Shown here piece by piece: positions 12,758-28,753 of a stretch of 50,768 nucleotides of DNA (its first letter is position 1; each line of letters opens with the position of its first letter). The translations under genes and the position numbers were made by a program. Source of the DNA: a phage; the sequence record NC_101820.1. The stretch is one strand, 5' to 3'. The notes under the pieces were generated by a model, which was not told where the DNA came from, did no database searches, and saw only the letters and a program-made list of their open reading frames with translations.

Positions 12758-13873
12758 ATGAAGGCAAAACAAAGATTTGATAGCGCCAAAGTAAAGGCGC
12801 ACTTTGATGATAACGGGTTTTTAGTTGATCGCCCTATCGTGGCGCGAATTGGTTTACAAGTCTATCAGACTCCTTTCGGTGAGCGCCGAGAATTTCGCCC
12901 TGCGTCAGAAGTATTCAAGGCCGACTCGCTCGCCACCTTTGCAGGGAAGCCGGTCACGGTTGGTCACGTCACGGTAACGCCAGAAAACGCCGAAAAGGTT
13001 GTAGTTGGTTCTTGTGCTGGCGCTGGTGTGCCGAACGGGATCGGCGTAGAGGTTCCGTTAAGCATTTACTCAAAACGAGCAATCGAAAGCGCAAAGAAGC
13101 GAGACACGGCGGAAATTTCAGTTGGTTATACATCGGTTGATATTGATAAACCAGGCTGGGGCAATAATAAAACTGGTGAGTACGTTTTTGATGAGGACGT
13201 TAGCGAAGACTGGAAACCTGATTCTCCTGATTGGGTTAAGTTTGATGCAATCCAGACTGAAATCAAGGTAAACCACATCGCGTTAGTTTTCCGAGGTCGA
13301 GCTGGCATTGCAAAATTAAACCTTGATAGCCAGCAAGATTTTCCGTATAGTGACGACGTTATTAACAACAAAGAGGATCAAATCATGACTGTAAAAATTA
13401 AACTGGATGGCGCTGTAGAGTTTGACGTGCCGAAAGCGGTTGCGGATCACATTGAATCACTGAAAGCTGATACCAAAGCGCAGAAAGAAAAGGCTGACAG
13501 CCTGGAAGCTGAGCGAGACGCACTGCAAACCAAAGTAGATGGCATTCAGGATCAGATTGATGCCGCAGTCAGGAAGGCCAAAGAAGATGCCGAGCAATAT
13601 GCTCAATTAGTGGCAGACGCTAAAGAGTTAGGCATCAAGTGCGACGGCCTGGATGCGAAAGCAATCAAGGTTGCATACATCAAGGAAGTTATGGGCAATG
13701 ACGTTTCTGATAAAACTGATGCCTATATCGAAACAGCTTTCGACATCGCCAAAAACTCTGATAAAATGGCGGCGCAGCGTAAGAGCATTAAAGGTGACTC
13801 TTTCGCGAATGAAAAGCAGGATGACGCAGGTTCTAAGCTGAATCCTAACGCTCGTTTTGAGAAACTGAAATAA
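12758..13873 (+). CDS. head scaffolding or prohead-core protein
   Basis: Globular N-terminal half and coiled-coil-rich, charged C-terminal half; located between head morphogenesis and capsid genes. Confidence 0.5.
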   Translation: MKAKQRFDSAKVKAHFDDNGFLVDRPIVARIGLQVYQTPFGERREFRPASEVFKADSLATFAGKPVTVGHVTVTPENAEKVVVGSCAGAGVPNGIGVEVPLSIYSKRAIESAKKRDTAEISVGYTSVDIDKPGWGNNKTGEYVFDEDVSEDWKPDSPDWVKFDAIQTEIKVNHIALVFRGRAGIAKLNLDSQQDFPYSDDVINNKEDQIMTVKIKLDGAVEFDVPKAVADHIESLKADTKAQKEKADSLEAERDALQTKVDGIQDQIDAAVRKAKEDAEQYAQLVADAKELGIKCDGLDAKAIKVAYIKEVMGNDVSDKTDAYIETAFDIAKNSDKMAAQRKSIKGDSFANEKQDDAGSKLNPNARFEKLK

Positions 13874-13885
13874 GGAGTAATTAAA

Positions 13886-14395
13886 ATGGCTAAAATTGGA
13901 GCAAGTTATTTTGACACTATGGCGCGTGCGCTTCCTGGTCAGGTATCCGATACTTCGGCATATAACATCGACGGCGCTTGTGTTCTTGACAAGAAAGACG
14001 GCATCCCAATCCTGGTTGGCGTGGCTGTTAAGCTAAAAGGCGTTGACTCAATGGGTAATAAGCTGATCGACGCTATTTCTGGTAGTAGTGATGTTCCTTA
14101 TGGCGTTGGCATCCGTTCGCACTTTCAAACTACGGCTGATAATGGACGAATGGTTTATGAGGCTGGCGGCGGAATCAACGTTATGACAGAGGGCCGCGTT
14201 TGGATGGTTGGCGATGATACCGACAAGAGCAAAAAACCATCGTGTCGTGAGCCTGTAAACATTGATGAAAACACTGGCAAGGTGAAAAGTGCTGGCACTA
14301 TCAATACCAACTGGATTTACACGGGAGATAAAACCACATTTGGAACTGGCGATGATGTGTTGACTTTGTTTGAAGTTCAGGTCTTCCCAAGCTAA
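13886..14395 (+). CDS. capsid-associated protein (decoration or cement candidate), paralog 1
   Basis: 169 aa; shares YNIDG, GRVW and W.YTGD motifs with 14446..15042; RBS AAGGAG. Confidence 0.5.
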   Translation: MAKIGASYFDTMARALPGQVSDTSAYNIDGACVLDKKDGIPILVGVAVKLKGVDSMGNKLIDAISGSSDVPYGVGIRSHFQTTADNGRMVYEAGGGINVMTEGRVWMVGDDTDKSKKPSCREPVNIDENTGKVKSAGTINTNWIYTGDKTTFGTGDDVLTLFEVQVFPS

Positions 14396-14401
14396 AATTA
14401 A

Positions 14402-14425
14402 GGCGCTCGCTTGAGCGCCTTTTTT
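14402..14425 (+). terminator. intrinsic terminator
   Basis: GGCGCTC gctt GAGCGCC followed by TTTTTT. Confidence 0.7.
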
Positions 14426-14445
14426 ATTATGTAAGGAGAAATGAA

Positions 14446-15042
14446 ATGGCTAAAGATTATTCATCTGTTATGGGTCTTTCTTGCCCTGGTTGTTTGGTTG
14501 ATTCTACTCGCTACAATATTGATGGAACTGGTGTTTGCGGATCTGAGTCGATCATTGCTGGCAAGGTTGTTTTCTTCAAAGAGAGAGTAGAAGGTTATAA
14601 CATATTTGTTGATCAAAAAGAGGATAATGCAGTAGTTGCTGGTATTGCGCTAAGGAGCAACATAACAACAACAGTTAACGAGGATGGCGGGTACTCTGAC
14701 TACAAAGAAGGTGATCCTATTAGCGTTGTAACTCGTGGTCGCGTGTGGGTGTTAACTGAAAGTATTGATGAAGCTCCTTCACACGGTGAAAAAGTATATG
14801 TTAATAACGATGGATTTGTTGGTAAGTCCGGCGACCAGGTTGTTGATGGGTGGATTTTTACAGGTGATTTTATGAAATTTGACAGTAGCATTAACATTGT
14901 AGGGATTCATATCAAACCTGTAATAGTACATGTTCAAAAGTTAACAGCGGCTATTATTGAAGATGTTGAAGGTAACAAGCCTGATGGAAACAGACCAAAC
15001 AATGAGCCTGTTAATCTCAAGGTTACTGTAGAGCCTGAATGA
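14446..15042 (+). CDS. capsid-associated protein, paralog 2
   Basis: 198 aa; paralogous to 13886..14395; followed by a start-less open frame. Confidence 0.5.
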   Translation: MAKDYSSVMGLSCPGCLVDSTRYNIDGTGVCGSESIIAGKVVFFKERVEGYNIFVDQKEDNAVVAGIALRSNITTTVNEDGGYSDYKEGDPISVVTRGRVWVLTESIDEAPSHGEKVYVNNDGFVGKSGDQVVDGWIFTGDFMKFDSSINIVGIHIKPVIVHVQKLTAAIIEDVEGNKPDGNRPNNEPVNLKVTVEPE

Positions 15043-15238
15043 ATATGCAACAGATAAAACTGGAACATGGGAGATTTCATTAGGAGGAGAATACGCATCA
15101 ATTTCGCCAAGTGGTGACACGGCGCAAGTAACGCCATCAAGCAATGGTGATGTATATGTAAACTGGGTGGCAAATGACGGATCTGGTGTATCTGACACAT
15201 TTATCATCAACTTTGTAGATCCAGAGCCTGGCCCTTAA
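15032..15238 (+). other. start-less open frame (about 68 codons) with Ig-like sequence character; candidate +1 frameshift extension
   Basis: Frame +1 relative to 14446..15042 is open from 15032 to TAA at 15236-15238 with no ATG, GTG or TTG near its 5' end; translation ...TGTWEISLGGEYASISPSGDTAQVTPSSNGDVYVNWVANDGSGVSDTFIINFVDPEPGP. Confidence 0.35.
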
Positions 15239-15256
15239 CATAAAAACATCTTGCAC

Positions 15257-15274
15257 GTTTAACAAAAAGTGCTA
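15257..15274 (-). promoter_or_regulatory. conserved motif, inverted, in the leader of the major capsid gene
   Basis: GTTTAACAAAAAGTGCTA on the plus strand about 45 nt upstream of the ATG; followed by hairpin GGCCGTT/AACGGCC. Confidence 0.4.
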
Positions 15275-15319
15275 TCATCTAGGCCGTTACATTTAACGGC
15301 CTTTTATGGAGGAAACAAA

Positions 15320-16288
15320 ATGGCTAAAAAATATGATGAACTAGATGCTACGATTGTAGCAAATCATTTACAGGTTCAGGGCGTTAAGGGTGATGCTTCT
15401 GATATGGGTATTTGGACCGCTCAAGAGCTACACAAGATCCGCTCAACGGCATACGAGAAAGAGTATCCGGCAGGTTCCGCACTTCGCGTATTCCCTGTAA
15501 CAAACGAGCTTTCTGATACTGATAAGACTTTTGAGTATCAGACTTTTGATAAGGTTGGCTACGCGAAAATTATCGCCGACTACACCGACGATCTGCCGAC
15601 CGTGGACGCGCTGATGACTTCTGAATTTGGCAAGGTGTTCCGCCTGGGTAACGCTTTTCTGATCTCCATTGATGAGATTAAAGCAGGTCAGCGAACTGGC
15701 AAGAGCCTGTCAACTCGCAAGGCTAACGCTGCGCAAAATGCGCATGATCAGTTGATTAACTTCCTGGTGTTCAAAGGTTCCAAGCCTCATAAGATCGTTT
15801 CCGTTTTCGATCACCCTAACCTTACGAAAATTGCTTCTAAAGGATGGATGAGCCAGGATGGAAACACCAAGTCCCCTGATGTGGCAAGCGATGAACTGGA
15901 GGCTGCAATCGAGACTATCGAGGAAGTAACAAAAGGTCAGCACCGCGCGACTAACATCCTGATCCCGCCGTCCATGCGTAAAGTCTTGACGGTTCGAATG
16001 GAAAATACCACTGAAAGTTATCTTGAATACTTCCAGAAGCAAAACGGCGGAATCACTATCGACTCTATCGCAGAGCTTGAGGATATTGACGGCAAAGGTA
16101 TGAAAGGTTGCTTGGTTTACGAAAAAGATCCAATGAACATGAGCATTGAGATTCCAGAAGCGTTTAACATGCTTCCGGCGCAGCCAAAAGACCTTCACTT
16201 CAAGGTTCCTTGCACTTCCAAGTGTACTGGCCTTACGATTTACCGTCCGTTTACGATGGTGCTTATTACTGACCTTGAAAAAGGCTGA
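15320..16288 (+). CDS. major capsid protein
   Basis: 322 aa; ATG 15320 after GGAGG; position between scaffold/decoration genes and head-tail joining genes. Confidence 0.65.
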   Translation: MAKKYDELDATIVANHLQVQGVKGDASDMGIWTAQELHKIRSTAYEKEYPAGSALRVFPVTNELSDTDKTFEYQTFDKVGYAKIIADYTDDLPTVDALMTSEFGKVFRLGNAFLISIDEIKAGQRTGKSLSTRKANAAQNAHDQLINFLVFKGSKPHKIVSVFDHPNLTKIASKGWMSQDGNTKSPDVASDELEAAIETIEEVTKGQHRATNILIPPSMRKVLTVRMENTTESYLEYFQKQNGGITIDSIAELEDIDGKGMKGCLVYEKDPMNMSIEIPEAFNMLPAQPKDLHFKVPCTSKCTGLTIYRPFTMVLITDLEKG

Positions 16289-16303
16289 GTAATTAGATAA
16301 CAT

Positions 16304-16331
16304 GGGGAGCCTTAATGGTTCCCCTTTTTTT
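16304..16331 (+). terminator. intrinsic terminator
   Basis: GGGGAGCC ttaat GGTTCCCC followed by TTTTTTT. Confidence 0.65.
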
Positions 16332-16349
16332 ATTTATGGAGCACACAAA

Positions 16350-16616
16350 ATGAGCAAAAATTTAAAACTTAAAGTAACTGGCGTTTGCATGATTGTCATG
16401 GACGGCAAGCGTTATCATCCTGGTGATGAGATTGAAATTGAATCTGATCGCATTAATGATTCCGCAATTGAATACCTGATCGCTCGCGGCGATATGGAAG
16501 TTAAAGACAATTCCGAAATTAACGAGCAAATCAAGGAGAAAGCGGAGAAGAAGCGCAAAAAAGATCCTACCGAGGGCAAGAGCCGAAAAGAGCTAGAGGA
16601 TGGCGGCGAATATTAA
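16350..16616 (+). CDS. hypothetical structural-module protein (88 aa)
   Basis: ATG 16350 after GGAG; charged K/E-rich C-terminus. Confidence 0.5.
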
Positions 16617-16662
16617 TAATTGGGGCGCTTATGCGCCCCTTGTCATATCTGGAGAAAACAAA

Positions 16663-17082
16663 ATGGTAGATGAATTTTACACAGACGCTGAAATCGTTCA
16701 GCAAATCGTAAAGTTGGCCCCACCAATGCAGCAGGTTGATCCCGATTTAATTGTGGCATGGATTGAGCTTGCTAAAGAATTTGTTTGCAAAAAACGGTTT
16801 AAAAACTCATACCCGAAAGCGGTTGCGCTTTACACTCTTCACCTTATGACCTTAGACGGGGCAATGAAACAGGAAGGTGAAAGCGTAGAAAGCTATTCCC
16901 GCCGCGTTGCATCGTTCACTCTGACTGGTGAGTTTAGTCAGACGTTTGATCGAATTTCTTCCGATACAAGCGGAAAGCAGATCCGACAAACGCCGTGGGG
17001 CAAAATGTACGAAGTGTTAAACCGTAAGCACGGTGGCGGCTTTGGACTTGTAACTGGATTGCGCCGGAGATGTTGCCGATGA
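16663..17082 (+). CDS. head-tail adaptor / connector-like protein
   Basis: 139 aa; ATG 16663 after GGAG; position after the capsid gene. Confidence 0.45.
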
Positions 17083-17453
17083 ATTACAATGAGATTGCAA
17101 GAATGGCTACTGCTGGGATTAACTTTTTCAGCGACGCTAACGGTATGTTTAAGTGCATCACGCAGCAGGGAGGGGTTGATATTATCGGCGGAGAGGAAGT
17201 TACCAAGCCTGAGATTTCAGTGATGATAAAGGGGCTTGTTAGATCTCCGAGGACTAGAGAGGTTGACGGTGAAACGATCCGAGTAACCGACAAGTTGGGG
17301 GTATTCACCAATGAAACTGAGATCAAAAATGGTTATCAGATTGAAATTGATGGCGATCGTTATGTTGTCGTTGAAGCAAGACCAGTCAGACAGACTAACA
17401 TCACGGCAGCTTATCGTCCGATATTAAGGAGGATTGCAGTGCATGGCGGATAA
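17079..17453 (+). CDS. head-tail joining protein (putative)
   Basis: 124 aa; overlaps neighbours by a few nt, typical of the connector gene cluster. Confidence 0.45.
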
Positions 17454-17886
17454 TTATAAGATCAGGGAATTTCACGGTGATATAAGCAGGTGGATTGATT
17501 CAGTAAGCAGCGGCCTTGTTGATTGCGTTGAAATGTTCGCGACAAACGTCCACGAGGATCTTGTAAAGCGTTCGCCAGTTGATACGGGCCGATATAAAGC
17601 TAACTGGCAGGTAACAGCAAACAAGCCGCCGCTATATGCTCTCAATCAATACGATCGCGATGGTAGTAAAACCATTGCAGAAGGCAAGCGAGCAATATAT
17701 GCAATCATGCGGGGCGGTGGAGCGGTGCGGTCAATCTATTTTTCAAACATGCTTATTTACGCCAATGCGCTTGAATACGGGCATTCAAAACAAGCGCCGT
17801 CCGGCGTGCTGGGAATCGTGGCGGTAAAGCTGCGATCCTATATGACTAAGGCAATAAAGGATTCGAGGGCAAAAAATGCACTATGA
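17443..17886 (+). CDS. tail completion protein (HK97 gp10-like)
   Basis: 147 aa; VDTGRYKANW pattern and position before the tail terminator and major tail genes. Confidence 0.5.
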   Translation: MADNYKIREFHGDISRWIDSVSSGLVDCVEMFATNVHEDLVKRSPVDTGRYKANWQVTANKPPLYALNQYDRDGSKTIAEGKRAIYAIMRGGGAVRSIYFSNMLIYANALEYGHSKQAPSGVLGIVAVKLRSYMTKAIKDSRAKNAL

Positions 17887-18277
17887 TTTAATGTTAGCGG
17901 CAAGAAAGGCGCTGGCGGCGGAATATGAATCACGATTCAAGATCGCCTATGAAAACGTTGATTTTGTTCCGCCTGGTGATGGTTCGATGTGGTTAAAATT
18001 TGACTACATGGAAGCCGACACAGATCGCATATCTCTTGATAGAAAATGCGTTTCTTATATCGGATTGGTTCAGGTTGGAATTGTTATGCCTCCTGGCGGC
18101 GGCACTGATAAAGCGCGTTTGCTGGCTAAAGAGATTGCGAGATTTTTCTATGATGGTAGAATGTTTGAAACTGGCTATATTAGCGATGGGGCAAATGTCC
18201 ACACATTACTAAAAAGTGAAACAGGTTGGTTCTTACCGATCCGTTTCAGTGTTAGGCTTGACACAAAGGAGGAATAA
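17876..18277 (+). CDS. tail terminator-like protein
   Basis: 133 aa immediately upstream of the major tail protein gene. Confidence 0.45.
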   Translation: MHYDLMLAARKALAAEYESRFKIAYENVDFVPPGDGSMWLKFDYMEADTDRISLDRKCVSYIGLVQVGIVMPPGGGTDKARLLAKEIARFFYDGRMFETGYISDGANVHTLLKSETGWFLPIRFSVRLDTKEE

Positions 18278-23574: not shown

Positions 23575-24305
23575 TGATTAGTGCAAAAATTAAACTTGAA
23601 ATAATGCAGCACGTTAAAGAGGAATACCCTAAAGAGGCTTGCGGCGTCATAACTCAAAAGTCACGGGTACAGAAATATCACCGCATAACCAACGTGCATG
23701 ACGATCCAGAAAATCACTTTGAAATGGACGCCGTAGAATACGCTGAATCGCTCGACAAAGGCGAATTAATCGCGGTGGTGCATTCCCATTGCGGTGATGG
23801 TGCTAGTACGATACCGAGCGCGCACGACTCATGTATGTGCGATGAAATGGGTGTGTCGTGGATTATAGTTTCATGGCCCGAAGGTGATATGAGAATTGTC
23901 GAGCCGCAGGAGAGGCCGCTTATCGGTCGCCCGTGGTCGCTGGGGTCGTTCGATTGCTGGGGTCTTATCATGGCATGGCATAAACAGCACGGAGTAGTAT
24001 TGAATGACTTCCGAAAGCCTTACGAGTGGTGGAAGTCAGAATATGGTGAAAATCTTTACCAGGATAATTATTTGAAAGAGGGATTTGTTGAAACTAACGA
24101 GCCTCCAAAACCTGGTGATATGGTGATTATGCAACTATCATCACCAGTCTGGAATCATGCGGGAATTTATTTGGGTAACAACCAGCTATTACATCATGCG
24201 TTTGGAAAGCTATCTCGCATCGACTTGTATTCTGGATGGTATCAGGAGCACACTGTAAAAATTTGCCGACATAAGGATCTGAAATATGACATTGAAAGTA
24301 ATTAA
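23574..24305 (+). CDS. tail assembly protein (lambda K-like; JAB/MPN plus NlpC/P60 domains)
   Basis: HSHCGDG...S..HD (JAMM-like motif) and a downstream Cys/His peptidase-like region; start refined to ATG 23574 (TAATG overlap). Confidence 0.85.
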   Translation: MISAKIKLEIMQHVKEEYPKEACGVITQKSRVQKYHRITNVHDDPENHFEMDAVEYAESLDKGELIAVVHSHCGDGASTIPSAHDSCMCDEMGVSWIIVSWPEGDMRIVEPQERPLIGRPWSLGSFDCWGLIMAWHKQHGVVLNDFRKPYEWWKSEYGENLYQDNYLKEGFVETNEPPKPGDMVIMQLSSPVWNHAGIYLGNNQLLHHAFGKLSRIDLYSGWYQEHTVKICRHKDLKYDIESN

Positions 24306-24882
24306 GCTATCTGGTTCACTGGGGCGTAGATTTGGCGTCTTTCACAAAATGGCGGTTGACTCATACCCCGAAGCAATACGTGCGTTATCTTCCCAGGTTG
24401 AAGGGTTCAAAGACTACATGCAAAGCGAAGTAGGATCGCGCATGAAGTACGCTGTATTCGTTGATGGAAAAAACGTTGGTCAGCATGATGAAAAATCATG
24501 GAAGTGCGCGCGAGAGGTTCGAATAGTTCCTGTTCCAACTGGTTCTAAGTCCGGCGGCCTGTTCAATGTTGTTTTTGGTGCTGTAATTATGGCTACTGCG
24601 TTCATTACTGGCGGTGCAAGCCTGGCGGCTATGGGCGCTTTTGCATCTTCCGCATTTATGATGGGTGGTGCTATCGCGCTTGGCGGTGTCATGCAAATGA
24701 TCTCGCCGCAGCAGGGCGGAATGAAACTGCAAAGCCAATCAGCAGAAAATAAGCCTTCTTACGCTTTCGGCGGCGCAGTAAATACCACGGCGGCAGGTTA
24801 TCCGGTTCCTTTGCCATATGGATATAGGACAGTAGGCGGCGCGATCTGGTCGGCTGGCAGCTACGCAGAGGACAAAGCATAA
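24286..24882 (+). CDS. tail assembly protein (lambda I-like)
   Basis: 198 aa with Gly/Ala-rich hydrophobic C-terminal half; position between K and J. Confidence 0.75.
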   Translation: MTLKVIKLSGSLGRRFGVFHKMAVDSYPEAIRALSSQVEGFKDYMQSEVGSRMKYAVFVDGKNVGQHDEKSWKCAREVRIVPVPTGSKSGGLFNVVFGAVIMATAFITGGASLAAMGAFASSAFMMGGAIALGGVMQMISPQQGGMKLQSQSAENKPSYAFGGAVNTTAAGYPVPLPYGYRTVGGAIWSAGSYAEDKA

Positions 24883-24883
24883 A

Positions 24884-24926
24884 TAGCACAATATGTTAAA
24901 GCGAAAACGGATTTTCGCTTTACAAT
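24884..24926 (+). promoter_or_regulatory. motif variant (TAGCACAATATGTTAAAGC) with hairpin and TACAAT at offset +37
   Basis: Hairpin AAGCGAAAA/TTTTCGCTT; TACAAT at 24921-24926. Confidence 0.35.
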
Positions 24927-24943
24927 TAATTAAGGATGTGATC

Positions 24944-25060
24944 ATGTGGCGTGATATTTTTTATTATAATGACGGTAAGTTATTTTGGGCTGTAGACGTA
25001 GGAAGAAGGATAAAGAAAGGAAGTGAGGCAGGAAGCGGCAGAAAAGATGATAGAGATTGA
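24944..25060 (+). pseudogene. remnant of an HNH (HNH_3-type) homing endonuclease N-terminus
   Basis: 38-codon ORF MWRDIFYYNDGKLFWAVDVGRRIKKGSEAGS... matches the N-terminal pattern of phage HNH endonucleases (from memory); no catalytic region follows. Confidence 0.35.
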
Positions 25061-25102
25061 AGTTTTAAACAAATTCCACATAAACCACGGAAAGTAGATT
25101 TA

Positions 25103-25125
25103 ACCAGCATTGCGCTGGTTTTTTT
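25103..25125 (+). terminator. intrinsic terminator
   Basis: CCAGC attgc GCTGG followed by TTTTTTT. Confidence 0.6.
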
Positions 25126-25174
25126 GTGCATTTATAATGTGCAAACCAAGAAACAGCACAAAAGGTTAAAAGTC

Positions 25175-28100
25175 ATGGCTAAATATATGATAAGCGGCAG
25201 TAAGGGCGGAAGCAAAAAGCCATACGTGCCAAAAGAGATGGAAGATAACCTGATCTCGATAAACAAGATTAAAGTTTTGCTGGCTGTATCTGATGGCGAG
25301 TGCGATCCAGATTTCACGTTGCGCGATCTTTATCTTGATGATGTTCCGGTTATTGCCAGCGATGGCACTGTTAACTACGAGGGAGTTACGGCTGAATATA
25401 GACCAGGCACACAGACGCAAGATTACATCCAGGGGTTTACTGACACATCAAGCGAGGTGACAGTTTCGCGAGACATTACAACAGACAATCCCTATATTAT
25501 CTCTGTGACAAACAAAAATCTTTCTGCAATAAGAATCAAGATTCTGATGCCAGTTGGCATAAAACAGGAGGATAACGGCGATCTTGTTGGCGTAAGGGTT
25601 GAGTATGCCGTAGATATGGCTATTGATGGCGGTTCTTATAGCGAGGTTATGAGAGATGTAATTGACGGCAAGACAAGATCAGGATACGACCGCAGCAGAA
25701 GGATTGATCTTCCTAAGTTTGATGAGCGCGTTTTAATCCGAGTAAAGCGACTGACTCCAGACAGCACATCTTCAAAGGTGACTGATAAAATCAAGCTGCA
25801 AAGTTACGCTGAGGTTGTTGATGCAAAATTCCGTTATCCTCTGACTGGCCTTGTATTCGTAGAATTTGACAGCGAATTGTTTCCTACGCAAATCCCTAAC
25901 ATTTCTATAAAAAAGAAATGGAAGATTATTAATGTGCCAAGCAACTATGATCCAATATCAAGAGAATATCACGGGTCATGGGATGGGACTTTTAAAAAAG
26001 CGTGGTCAAATAATCCGGCTTGGGTTCTTTATGATCTGGTGACAAATCAGCGTTACGGACTTGATCAGCGAGAGTTAGGAATACAGATCGACAAGTGGAG
26101 CTTATACGAGGCGGGCGTTTACTGTGATCAGAAAGTTCCAGACGGCAAGGGTGGTACAGAGCCTCGCTACCTATGCGATGTGGTGATTCAGAATCAAGTT
26201 GAGGCTTATCAGCTAATCCGTGACATTTGCTCAATCTTTCGCGGAATGAGTTTTTGGAATGGTGAGAGCTTATCAATCGTGATTGATAAGCCGCGCGATC
26301 CATCATACGTGTTTACTAATGAAAACGTCATCAACGGTGATTTTCAGTACATAAACGCAAGCGAAAAAAGCATGTACACGCAGTGTAACGTGACGTTTGA
26401 CGACGAACAAAACATGTATCAGCAGGACGTAGAGGGGGTTTTTGATACTGAGGCTGCATTACGATTTGGATACAATCCAACAAGCATTACAGCGATCGGT
26501 TGTACACGCAGGAGCGAAGCGAATCGTCGCGGTCGGTGGGTTTTGAAAACAAACCTTAGAAGCACTACTGTAAACTTTGCTACCGGACTAGAGGGGATGA
26601 TTCCATCAATAGGTGATGTGATTGCTATCGCTGATAATTTTCAGAGCAGCAACCTAACGTTAAACCTATCGGGCCGAGTGATGGAAGTTTCAGGATTGCA
26701 GGTTTTCGTTCCGTTTAAGGTTGATGCTCGCCCTGGTGATTTTATTATCATCAACAAGCCGGACGGCAAGCCAGTTAAGCGCACGATCTCAAAGGTTAGC
26801 GCAGACGGAAAAACCATTGAGTTAAATATTGGATTTGGTTTTGATGTTAAGCCTGATACTGTTTTTGCGATTGACCGTACTGATCTTGCGTTGCAGCAAT
26901 ACGTTGTGACAACCATCAGCAAGGGTGATGACGAAAACGAGTTTACCTATTCAATCACGGCTGTAGAGTACGATCCGAACAAATACGACGAGATTGATTA
27001 TGGAGTAAACATTGATGACAGACCGACTTCAATTGTTCAGCCTGACGTGATGGCAGCGCCTGAGAACGTTAAGATCTCATCTTATTCTCGCGTCGTGCAG
27101 GGTGTTAGCGTTGAGACTATGGTTGTTTCATGGGATAAGGTTCCTTACGCATCGCTTTATGAAATGCAGTGGCGAAAAGGTGATGGTAACTGGCTGAATA
27201 CGCCGCAGACCGCTAACAAAGAGATAGAGGTAGAAGGGATTTACTCTGGCAACTACCAAGTAAGGGTGAGATCCGTTTCTGCAAGCGGTAACGCTTCCCC
27301 GTGGTCAAAGATTGCAACCGCCACTCTGACAGGTAAAGTTGGCGAGCCAGGAGCGCCGATTAATCTTACGGCTTCTGATAATGAAGTTTTTGGCATTCGT
27401 GTCAAATGGGGTATGCCGGAAGGATCAGGCGATACGGCTTACATTGAGCTTCACCAATCGCCAGACGGAACGGTTGAAAACTCAAGTCTGCTTACGCTGA
27501 TTCCATATCCTCAATATGAGTATTGGCATAGCACGTTACCAGCGGGGCAAGTTGTATGGTATAGAATCCGCAGCGTTGACAGAATAGGCAACGTTTCCAG
27601 TTGGACTGACTTTGTTCGCGGTATGGCGTCAGATGATGTTGAATCTGTTTTGGGCGACATTCTGGACAAGATTTTTGATACAGAAGCTGGTCAAGAAATC
27701 AAAGAGAACGCCATAGACAGCGCCAATAAAATCAAAGACCAGGCACAATCAATCATACAGAACGCGTTGGCAAATGATGCAGATGTGAAGTGGACGCGAG
27801 TGCAAAACGGAAAGCGCAAGGCTGAATATGGTCATGCTCTTGAGCTTATCGCCAATGAAACAGAAGCGCGCGTAACTCAAATCGAAGAGTTAAGGGCATC
27901 AATTGATGGCGAGATAACATCAAGCATCAAGACAGTGCAGGAGGCAATTGCCACTGAATCAGAGACGCGAGCGACTCAAATTCAGCAGCTTGATTCTAAA
28001 TTCACAAAAGAAATCGACGGCGTGCGCAAGGATACTTCTGCAAGCATTAGCGATGTAAGGCAGACAATCACTAACGAGTCAGAAGCGCGCGCTCAGGCCG

Positions 28101-28753
28101 TTCAGCAGCTTGACGCTAAGTTCACGAAAGAGATAAACGACCTTGACGGAGTTATCAAAACAGAAGTCGAGGCTAACATCTCAGAAGTGAAACAGGCGAT
28201 CGCCAATGAGACAGAGGCAAGGGTTCAGGCTGACCAGGCATTAACAGCACGATTTGGCGACGTTGAATCTGCATTGGTTGAAAAGTTGGATTCTTGGGCG
28301 AGCGTTGATTCAGTTGGCGCTAAATACGCTATGAAACTTGGCCTTACTTACAAAGGCCAGCAATACAGCGCAGGAATGGTGATGCAGCTTTCGCAGGGTT
28401 CATCCGGCCTTATCTCGCAAATTTTGTTTGATGCTAACAGGTTCGCCATTATGACTAGCTCTACTGGAGGGACTTTTACTTTGCCTTTCGTGGTTGAGAA
28501 TAATCAGGTTTTCATTAATAGTCTTTTGGTGAAGAACGGTTCAATCACTAATGCGATGATTGGTAATGTGATTCAGTCAAACAACTTTGTTCAAAACCAG
28601 CAAGGATGGAGGCTTGATAAAAACGGAATCTTTGAGAATTACGGATCAACGCCAGGAGAAGGAGCTACTAAATTCACCAATGAGGGATTGAAGGTAAAAG
28701 ATGCAAACGGAGTATTGAGGGTTGAAGTCGGAAGGATTACCGGAAGCTGGTAA
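25175..28753 (+). CDS. central tail fibre / host specificity protein (lambda J-like)
   Basis: 1192 aa; N-terminus MAKYMISGSKGGSKKPYVPKEMEDNL resembles lambda J; C-terminal ETEAR/QQLD heptad-like repeats; start refined to ATG 25175. Confidence 0.9.
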   Translation: MAKYMISGSKGGSKKPYVPKEMEDNLISINKIKVLLAVSDGECDPDFTLRDLYLDDVPVIASDGTVNYEGVTAEYRPGTQTQDYIQGFTDTSSEVTVSRDITTDNPYIISVTNKNLSAIRIKILMPVGIKQEDNGDLVGVRVEYAVDMAIDGGSYSEVMRDVIDGKTRSGYDRSRRIDLPKFDERVLIRVKRLTPDSTSSKVTDKIKLQSYAEVVDAKFRYPLTGLVFVEFDSELFPTQIPNISIKKKWKIINVPSNYDPISREYHGSWDGTFKKAWSNNPAWVLYDLVTNQRYGLDQRELGIQIDKWSLYEAGVYCDQKVPDGKGGTEPRYLCDVVIQNQVEAYQLIRDICSIFRGMSFWNGESLSIVIDKPRDPSYVFTNENVINGDFQYINASEKSMYTQCNVTFDDEQNMYQQDVEGVFDTEAALRFGYNPTSITAIGCTRRSEANRRGRWVLKTNLRSTTVNFATGLEGMIPSIGDVIAIADNFQSSNLTLNLSGRVMEVSGLQVFVPFKVDARPGDFIIINKPDGKPVKRTISKVSADGKTIELNIGFGFDVKPDTVFAIDRTDLALQQYVVTTISKGDDENEFTYSITAVEYDPNKYDEIDYGVNIDDRPTSIVQPDVMAAPENVKISSYSRVVQGVSVETMVVSWDKVPYASLYEMQWRKGDGNWLNTPQTANKEIEVEGIYSGNYQVRVRSVSASGNASPWSKIATATLTGKVGEPGAPINLTASDNEVFGIRVKWGMPEGSGDTAYIELHQSPDGTVENSSLLTLIPYPQYEYWHSTLPAGQVVWYRIRSVDRIGNVSSWTDFVRGMASDDVESVLGDILDKIFDTEAGQEIKENAIDSANKIKDQAQSIIQNALANDADVKWTRVQNGKRKAEYGHALELIANETEARVTQIEELRASIDGEITSSIKTVQEAIATESETRATQIQQLDSKFTKEIDGVRKDTSASISDVRQTITNESEARAQAVQQLDAKFTKEINDLDGVIKTEVEANISEVKQAIANETEARVQADQALTARFGDVESALVEKLDSWASVDSVGAKYAMKLGLTYKGQQYSAGMVMQLSQGSSGLISQILFDANRFAIMTSSTGGTFTLPFVVENNQVFINSLLVKNGSITNAMIGNVIQSNNFVQNQQGWRLDKNGIFENYGSTPGEGATKFTNEGLKVKDANGVLRVEVGRITGSW

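What the first reader, a model, noticed from the sequence alone, without database searches (positions are those of the whole stretch)
24944..25080. Decayed HNH homing endonuclease remnant between tail genes I and J
A 38-codon ORF (MWRDIFYYNDGKLFWAVDVGRRIKKGSEAGSGRKDDRD) matches the N-terminal signature of phage HNH_3-type endonucleases (Y.DG.L.W...GRR.K.G.EAGS) and then stops. The next frame carries a possible further fragment (...KMIEIEVLNKFHINHGK), and no catalytic HNH motif follows. It sits in a short intergenic island with its own motif copy and terminator, consistent with a mobile endonuclease gene that inserted and later eroded.
Basis: partly seen in the sequence, partly recalled or inferred. 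Interest (0 to 1): 0.45.

Follow-up and report, generated by a model that had tools for sequence, protein, structure and literature searches.

The report
Dead homing endonuclease gene between tail genes
The short ORF between tail genes I and J is what is left of a selfish HNH homing-endonuclease gene after one 323-base deletion removed its catalytic core. It is an ordinary pseudogene that public records label only "hypothetical protein".

Summary
The window is a Warwickvirus (T1-like, Drexlerviridae) coliphage close to phage tonn. Eight related phages and one metagenome contig carry an intact 158-aa HNH_3 endonuclease gene in the same I-J gap (Pfam HNH_3 E=1e-15; best fold match I-HmuI). About 43 other phage records have an empty site.

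The window and tonn carry that gene minus one 323-bp internal deletion. Its junction is a 3-nt GCG microhomology inside an 8/9 direct repeat, CAGGA[A/T]GCG. The deletion removes codons 32-139, which hold the whole HNH domain and most of the AP2-like DNA-binding domain, and it shifts the frame. This produces the 38-codon ORF (24944-25060). The true C-terminus (residues 139-158) is left in the next frame, ending at 25097.

Only one private substitution has accumulated, so this was a single recent event rather than slow erosion. The terminator at 25102-25120 belongs to the resident I-J site, not to the island. Intact island copies are 6-10 times less diverse than their flanks, which fits recent horizontal spread. 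A second, independent null allele (E64*) exists in metagenomes. Low interest: this is a textbook degeneration stage of a homing element.

The parts
24286..24882 (+). Tail assembly gene I (198 aa), left neighbour. Its last codons carry two synonymous variants linked to the endonuclease gene (24870 G, 24873 C; empty-site phages have A and T).
   Evidence: ORF list. Annotation of tonn and relatives, Pfam Lambda_tail_I. Fixed differences between 9 endonuclease-bearing and 7 empty-site genomes.
24883..25101 (+). Remnant of the homing-endonuclease island: 219 bp here and 542 bp when intact. It replaces the 6-7 nt AAAAA(A)T found in empty-site phages.
   Evidence: Three-state alignment and junction listing for 16 genomes.
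24885..24900 (+). Copy 1 of the motif AGCACAANANGTTAAA, at the left end of the island. It resembles the leader of gene J.
   Evidence: Two matches in the window against 0.04 expected. Repeat D2, 85% over 20 nt, in the intact island.
24898..24921 (+). Hairpin AAAGCGAAAA-CGGA-UUUUCGCUUU upstream of the endonuclease start. It belongs to the island and its function is unknown.
   Evidence: RNA fold. The whole-segment z-score is only -1.45.
24932..24938 (+). Shine-Dalgarno region, AAGGATG here. Seven of nine intact copies read AAGGAGG. The T at 24937 is shared with the intact copy of mar001J1, so it is not decay specific to this allele.
24944..25036 (+). Codons 1-31 of the endonuclease, identical in protein to the intact allele. 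This is the N-terminal beta-strand region.
   Evidence: tblastn E=1e-16, alignments, structure model.
25029..25037 (+). Deletion junction. CAGGAAGCG is the fused product of the repeats CAGGAAGCG and CAGGATGCG, which lie 323 bp apart in the intact gene. The crossover falls within GCG (25035-25037).
   Evidence: Fixed-offset comparison with 8 intact copies.
25038..25060 (+). Out-of-frame tail (GRKDDRD) and TGA stop of the 38-codon ORF.
25035..25097 (+). Original codons 139-158 plus the TAG stop, stranded in the next frame. They carry the one private substitution (25048 G>T, R143M in the old frame).
   Evidence: tblastn E=2.5e-8. All 8 intact copies have G at 25048.
25102..25127 (+). Resident I-J intrinsic terminator (stem-loop 25102-25120 plus a T-run). 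This is the variant linked to the endonuclease gene: AACCAGC-ATTGC-GCTGGTT, against ACCCGC-CTTGC-GCGGGT at empty sites, with a compensatory C>A / G>T pair.
   Evidence: Terminator scan, folds, 16-genome comparison.
25155..25170 (+). Copy 2 of the motif AGCACAANANGTTAAA, in the leader and ribosome-binding region of gene J. It is present in all phages, whether the site is empty or filled.
25175..28753 (+). Tail tip gene J (1192 aa), right neighbour.
   Evidence: ORF list and annotation of tonn.

Best explanation
Positions 24883-25101 are the disabled remnant of a free-standing HNH homing-endonuclease gene. When intact it encodes 158 aa: an N-terminal beta region, an HNH_3 catalytic domain and an AP2-like C-terminal DNA-binding domain. 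It occupies the gap between tail genes I and J in a minority of Warwickvirus phages.

In the lineage shared by this phage and phage tonn, one 323-bp deletion occurred between two imperfect 9-nt direct repeats. It removed codons 32-139 and shifted the frame. That left a 38-codon ORF (31 genuine residues plus 7 out-of-frame) and a stranded 20-codon C-terminal piece. All catalytic residues and most of the DNA-binding domain are physically gone, so the locus cannot make an active nuclease. This much is shown.

The rest is inferred.
- The intact gene spreads by cutting the empty I-stop/terminator site of co-infecting relatives and being copied in during repair.
- The deletion arose by slipped or misaligned pairing, or by single-strand annealing.
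- The remnant still has both junctions and the flanking variants of filled sites, so it is probably as resistant to that nuclease as an intact allele. It represents the degeneration stage of the homing cycle.
For: - Identity of the phage. The region is 99.9% identical to tonn, where the ORF is annotated tonn_69 'hypothetical protein'.
- Three states of the site. JLBYU10, JLBYU01, atuna, brachmannus, Phunderstruck, mar001J1, orkinos and Kalemo have 323 extra bases and an annotated HNH endonuclease here. So does metagenome contig SKED01002492. The empty junction is contiguous at 95% identity or more in 43 phage records.
- Nature of the intact protein. Pfam HNH_3 E=1e-15 over residues 51-95. PHROG 99 E=4e-49. 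The AlphaFold model (pLDDT 83.5) best matches the HNH homing endonuclease I-HmuI, 1u3e, E=1.8e-4. Some homologues carry AP2 plus HNH_3.
- The lesion. A single gap of 323 columns. The left side matches the intact gene through 25037 and the right side from 25035. The only private substitution is at 25048.
- Direction of change. Full-length homologues at 30-47% identity exist in many other phages, so the short form is the derived one.
- Mobility. Intact islands have 5/543 segregating sites, against 112/2097 and 190/2098 in the flanks. Differences fixed between filled and empty sites are confined to 24870, 24873, the boundary base 24884 and the terminator stem.
- Not an artefact. The deletion occurs in two distinct genomes. 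The window and tonn differ by a 71-76% identical block and by another endonuclease gene, but share a near-identical 8.2-kb block around the remnant.
- Independent second null allele. E64* (GAA>TAA) in three metagenome assemblies.
Against: - No endonuclease activity, cleavage site or homing has been measured for this gene family in T1-like phages. Mobility rests on distribution and diversity patterns only.
- The low diversity of the island could partly reflect purifying selection rather than recent spread.
- The ORF keeps a start codon and a partial Shine-Dalgarno sequence, so a 38-aa peptide may still be made. A residual role for it cannot be excluded from sequence.
- With only two near-identical carriers, selection on the remnant cannot be assessed.
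Confidence: 0.93

Rival explanations
1. The remnant is kept because it is useful as a 'disarmed but immune' allele. It preserves the disrupted target site, so the phage resists cutting by intact copies in co-infecting relatives without paying for a nuclease. This extends the best explanation rather than excluding it.
For: Both junctions, the two synonymous variants at the end of gene I and the variant terminator stem are identical to those of intact-gene phages. The allele is present in two genomes that are otherwise mosaic.
Against: An intact allele is equally protected, and so would be any neutral remnant. The two carriers share a near-identical 8.2-kb block (4 mismatches), so persistence may be simply recent. 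The cleavage site is unknown.
Confidence: 0.3
2. The 38-codon ORF is a genuine small gene with its own function, for example a peptide that binds the target DNA or the intact nuclease and blocks homing.
For: It has an ATG start with a partial Shine-Dalgarno sequence and is called as a CDS in tonn. It keeps the conserved N-terminal motif of the family, which in the model forms beta strands.
Against: The exact product is on record only in tonn. All other relatives have either the 158-aa gene or no gene. Seven of its 38 residues are frameshift by-product. The N-terminal sheet of the model is cut after its first two strands.
Confidence: 0.03
3. The deletion is a sequencing or assembly artefact and the phage really carries the intact gene.
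For: Short-read assemblies can collapse repeats, and the deletion lies in the best self-matching register of the island.
Against: The repeats are only 9-10 nt long, far too short to collapse an assembly. The same junction occurs in two different genomes, the tonn record and this window, which differ elsewhere by mosaic blocks.
Confidence: 0.01
4. The short form is ancestral and the 158-aa gene arose from it by insertion.
For: None beyond the formal symmetry of an indel.
Against: The 'inserted' 323 bp would have to supply exactly the HNH_3 domain in frame. The full-length architecture is shared with homologues at 30-47% identity in many unrelated phages.
Confidence: 0.01

Closest known systems
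Free-standing phage HNH homing endonucleases of the HNH_3 (PF13392) / PHROG 99 type, often with an AP2-like C-terminal domain. Characterised examples, cited from my own knowledge, are T4 MobE and the T5 F-Tfl enzymes.
   Same: The intact allele has the HNH_3 domain and a full-length PHROG 99 match. It sits between essential genes with its own ribosome-binding site. It is sporadically present among near-identical genomes, and flanking polymorphisms are confined to the junctions.
   Different: The copy in this window has lost the catalytic domain and is not a functional member. No enzyme of this particular Warwickvirus allele has been characterised. Its closest relatives outside the genus are below 50% identical.
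I-HmuI (PDB 1U3E), the intron-encoded HNH nicking homing endonuclease of Bacillus phage SPO1
   Same: It is the best structural match of the modelled intact protein (Foldseek E=1.8e-4, probability 1.0, 24% identity). The order of parts is the same: an N-terminal beta DNA-binding region, the HNH motif, then a C-terminal DNA-binding module.
   Different: I-HmuI is intron-encoded and ends in a helix-turn-helix. This gene is free-standing and ends in an AP2-like sheet plus helix. No sequence-level match to any PDB chain was found.
Degenerate homing endonuclease genes in the 'homing cycle' of invasion, fixation, degeneration and loss (Goddard and Burt 1999, yeast omega; cited from my own knowledge)
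   Same: Intact, disabled and empty alleles of one site coexist in a population of close relatives. There are two independent null lesions: the 323-bp deletion and E64*.
   Different: The setting is a virulent siphovirus tail-gene cluster, and the time scale looks very short (one private substitution). Precise loss regenerating an empty site has not been shown, so the empty sites may simply be ancestral.

Membership tests
HNH_3 / PHROG 99 phage HNH homing endonuclease (functional member) | HNH beta-beta-alpha-metal catalytic motif (D72-H73 ... N85 ... N94/N97 in this family) | tested here: not met
   In the intact allele the motif lies at residues 51-95 (Pfam E=1e-15; invariant columns). The window lacks codons 32-139 entirely, and Pfam finds no domain in its fragments.
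HNH_3 / PHROG 99 phage HNH homing endonuclease (functional member) | Conserved N-terminal region (Y..GKLFW ... GSEAG) | tested here: met
   The 38-aa ORF hits PHROG 99 at E=6.7e-5 and retains Y8, L13, W15, G26, A29 and G30.
HNH_3 / PHROG 99 phage HNH homing endonuclease (functional member) | C-terminal sequence-specific DNA-binding domain (AP2-like) | tested here: not met
   Only the last 20 codons remain, and they are out of frame. In the intact protein the domain is modelled as three strands plus a helix. Homologues carry PF00847. Pfam AP2 was not detected in this allele, and the fold hits to AP2 domains are weak.
Homing endonuclease gene as a mobile element (the locus, intact allele) | Presence/absence polymorphism at one precise site among otherwise collinear close relatives | tested here: met
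   Eight phages plus one metagenome contig are intact, two genomes carry the deletion, and 43 records have a contiguous empty junction.
Homing endonuclease gene as a mobile element (the locus, intact allele) | The element is much less diverged than its flanks, and its associated variants are limited to the junctions | tested here: met
   Segregating sites are 0.9% in the island against 5.3% and 9.1% in the flanks. Fixed differences occur only at 24870, 24873, 24884 and the terminator stem.
Homing endonuclease gene as a mobile element (the locus, intact allele) | Demonstrated site-specific cleavage of the empty allele and super-Mendelian inheritance | not testable with these tools
   This needs enzyme assays and mixed-infection crosses. 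No paper on this gene was found.
Pseudogene / degenerate homing endonuclease gene | An intact orthologue at the same locus in relatives, plus a disabling lesion here | tested here: met
   The flanking island DNA matches the intact copies except at 24937, 25048 and the junction base 25034, and carries a 323-bp frameshifting deletion (323 = 3 x 107 + 2).
Pseudogene / degenerate homing endonuclease gene | Relaxed constraint, meaning accumulating further lesions | tested here: inconclusive
   There is only one private substitution (25048), and the two carriers are identical across the island. That is too recent and too few copies to measure.

The most novel reading that the evidence does not exclude
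The deletion allele is not mere debris but a selected 'disarmed yet immune' state. It might also make a 38-aa N-terminal peptide that interferes with the intact nuclease of co-infecting relatives, that is, an anti-homing factor derived from the homing gene itself.
Probability: 0.05. Interest if true: 0.45.

Novelty: new member of a known kind. Interest (0 to 1): 0.15.

Why it matters
The main value is for annotation. The ORF annotated tonn_69 'hypothetical protein' in tonn, and its copy here, should be labelled a truncated HNH homing-endonuclease pseudogene.

The locus is also a tidy natural series for anyone who wants to test homing, target-site immunity and co-conversion in T1-like coliphages with isolates that already exist. 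The series comprises the empty site, the intact gene, a deletion null and a nonsense null, all within one genus.

It does not change what is understood about homing endonucleases.

Tried and rejected
- Pfam on the three short translations gave nothing useful. The retained N-terminus lies outside PF13392, and PHROGs was the library that recognised it.
- A nine-sequence MAFFT alignment misplaced the deletion and produced spurious 'variable' columns. I replaced it with a fixed-offset comparison.
- Exact scans of IMG/VR for the deletion junction and for the intact left junction found nothing. The single metagenome scan found one intact copy.
- A sequence search of the PDB found no relative. A fold search was needed.
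- Rfam found only a sub-threshold chance hit on the terminator. The sigma-70 promoter scan found none in 24200-25400.
- I first assumed the window was tonn itself. Whole-genome comparison showed it is a distinct mosaic relative.
- Accession MN850582 (phage ityhuna) is not in the phage collection, so the suspected identity is unconfirmed. It rests on the same length of 50,768 bp and a GC content of 44.7%.
- I considered the weakened Shine-Dalgarno sequence (24937 T) as a sign of decay and rejected it, because the intact mar001J1 copy has the same base.
- I considered a deletion between the perfect 10-nt repeats TCGCTTTACA, which have the same 323-nt spacing. I rejected it because the sequence between the left repeat and 25037 is retained.

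Full report
**What is there.** The next frame holds a short piece ending in TAG at 25095-25097. An intrinsic terminator follows at 25102-25120 with its T-run.

**Which phage this is.** The region is 99.9% identical to Escherichia phage tonn (Drexlerviridae, Tempevirinae, Warwickvirus). In tonn the ORF is annotated tonn_69 'hypothetical protein'.

The window is not tonn itself:
- Window 17879-50767 matches tonn at 99.1%.
- Window 13439-17887 is only 71-76% identical.
- tonn carries an extra endonuclease gene that the window lacks.

The window's length (50,768 bp) and GC content (44.66%) equal those listed for phage ityhuna (MN850582) in PMC7552041. That record is not in the searchable collection, so this identity is only an inference.

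**Three states of the same site.**
- *Intact gene.* Eight related phages (JLBYU10, JLBYU01, atuna, brachmannus, Phunderstruck, mar001J1, orkinos, Kalemo) and one metagenome contig have 323 more bases here and a 158-aa ORF, several annotated as HNH endonuclease.
- *Empty site.* Here the stop of gene I is followed after 6-7 nt by the terminator. This junction is contiguous at 95% identity or more in 43 phage records.
- *Deleted form.* It occurs only in tonn and in this window. The exact 38-aa product is on record nowhere else.

**What the intact gene is.**
- Pfam HNH_3 scores E=1e-15 over residues 51-95.
- PHROG 99 'HNH endonuclease' scores E=4e-49 over the full length.
- Full-length homologues at 30-47% identity occur in many other phages, at other genomic positions. 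Some of them also carry a Pfam AP2 domain.
- An AlphaFold model (mean pLDDT 83.5) shows an N-terminal beta region, the HNH strands and helix, and a C-terminal three-stranded sheet plus helix.
- Its best solved-structure match is the HNH homing endonuclease I-HmuI (1u3e, E=1.8e-4, probability 1.0). AP2 domains appear among the weak hits.

**The lesion.** Aligning the window with an intact and an empty allele shows one gap of 323 columns and nothing else. A fixed-offset comparison with all eight intact copies gives these details:
- The left side matches through 25037 and the right side from 25035.
- The crossover therefore lies in a GCG trinucleotide.
- That trinucleotide sits inside the imperfect direct repeat CAGGAAGCG / CAGGATGCG.

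Because 323 = 3 x 107 + 2, the frame shifts. Codons 1-31 are followed by GRKDDRD and a stop, and original codons 139-158 are stranded in the next frame. The deletion removes V32 to D138/A139. That span includes every invariant catalytic-region residue (D72, H73, N85, N94, N97) and most of the C-terminal domain.

tblastn of the intact protein against the window recovers exactly these two pieces (E=1e-16 and 2.5e-8) and no paralogue.

Only one substitution is private to the deletion allele (25048 G>T). The weaker Shine-Dalgarno base at 24937 is shared with the intact mar001J1 copy. So the gene was knocked out by a single, evidently recent event, not by gradual erosion.

The deletion register is also the best self-matching register of the intact island:
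- It ranks 1 of 450 shifts.
- It is the only shift with an exact run of 9 nt or more (TCGCTTTACA, 114 nt upstream of the junction).

This fits misaligned pairing, but much of the score comes from the junction repeat itself, so I treat it as suggestive only.

**Evidence that the island is mobile.** Among the nine intact copies the island has 5 segregating sites in 543 bp. The left flank has 112 in 2097 and the right flank 190 in 2098.

The flanks of filled and empty phages are intermixed in similarity. Differences fixed between the nine filled (or remnant) genomes and seven empty ones are confined to three places:
- two synonymous positions at the end of gene I (24870, 24873);
- the boundary base 24884;
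- the terminator stem, where a C>A change is matched by a compensatory G>T.

That is the expected picture for a homing element that recently entered diverged backgrounds and carried a few donor bases with it. It also places the likely recognition site at the I-stop/terminator junction. Actual cleavage and homing are inferred, not shown.

**Persistence and parallel decay.** The window and tonn differ at only four positions between 22140 and 30376 (24771, 26352, 27027, 28555), against roughly 3% divergence just upstream. The deletion therefore sits on a shared block of about 8.2 kb inside two otherwise mosaic genomes. This indicates one event, and not an assembly artefact.

A second, independent null allele exists. 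A GAA>TAA nonsense change at codon 64 splits the gene into 63-aa and 90-aa ORFs in three metagenome assemblies.

- The terminator belongs to the resident site, not to the island.
- The 'motif copy' (AGCACAANANGTTAAA at 24885 and 25155 only, against 0.04 expected) is real. The island's left end resembles the J leader, but what that means is unknown.
- No known RNA family or promoter was detected in the gap.

**Verdict.** The locus is a recently disabled free-standing HNH homing-endonuclease gene, a standard degeneration stage of a selfish element. It is probably still protected from the intact enzyme because its junctions are unchanged (inference). It is ordinary biology. Its main value is an annotation correction and a convenient natural allele series for homing experiments. 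No paper addressing this gene was found.

Noticed in passing
window 17876-17890 (junction of ORFs 17434-17886 and 17876-18277): This is the empty site of a second free-standing endonuclease of the same family. tonn carries tonn_78 (169 aa) exactly here, bounded by a repeated CACTATGA. Window/tonn identity drops from 99.1% on the right of the site to 71-76% on the left, so a mosaic boundary coincides with a homing-endonuclease site.
   Followed up: partly
window 13439-17887: This block of head and neck genes is only 71-76% identical to tonn, although the rest of the genome is about 99% identical. Other Warwickvirus phages (KMB46, JLBYU01, tunzivis) match the first half of the window better than tonn does.
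   Followed up: no
L024 2297-2773; L025 1097-1573; L026 968-1444: Metagenome contigs carry the same I-J endonuclease gene, disabled independently by a nonsense mutation (codon 64, GAA>TAA). It is called as separate 63-aa and 90-aa ORFs.
   Followed up: yes
window 25102-25120 compared with L013 2103-2120: The I-J terminator differs between filled and empty sites by a compensatory pair in the stem (C>A with G>T), plus a loop change and a flank change. Both versions fold: -9.8 and -12.7 kcal/mol.
   Followed up: partly
L011 2130-2139 and 2453-2462 (intact island): A perfect 10-nt repeat, TCGCTTTACA, lies at the same 323-nt spacing as the deletion repeats. Shift 323 is the top self-similarity register of the island.
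   Followed up: partly
window 24885-24900 and 25155-25170: The 16-nt motif AGCACAANANGTTAAA occurs only twice in the window: at the island's left edge and in the J leader. Its meaning is unknown.
   Followed up: partly
L012 1501-2224 (phage vB_EcoS_XY3): Gene I is annotated as two overlapping CDS, with about 127 extra bases relative to other empty-site phages. This could be a duplication or an assembly problem.
   Followed up: no
whole window: The window's length (50,768 bp) and GC content (44.66%) equal those listed for phage ityhuna (MN850582) in PMC7552041. That record is absent from the searchable phage collection.
   Followed up: partly
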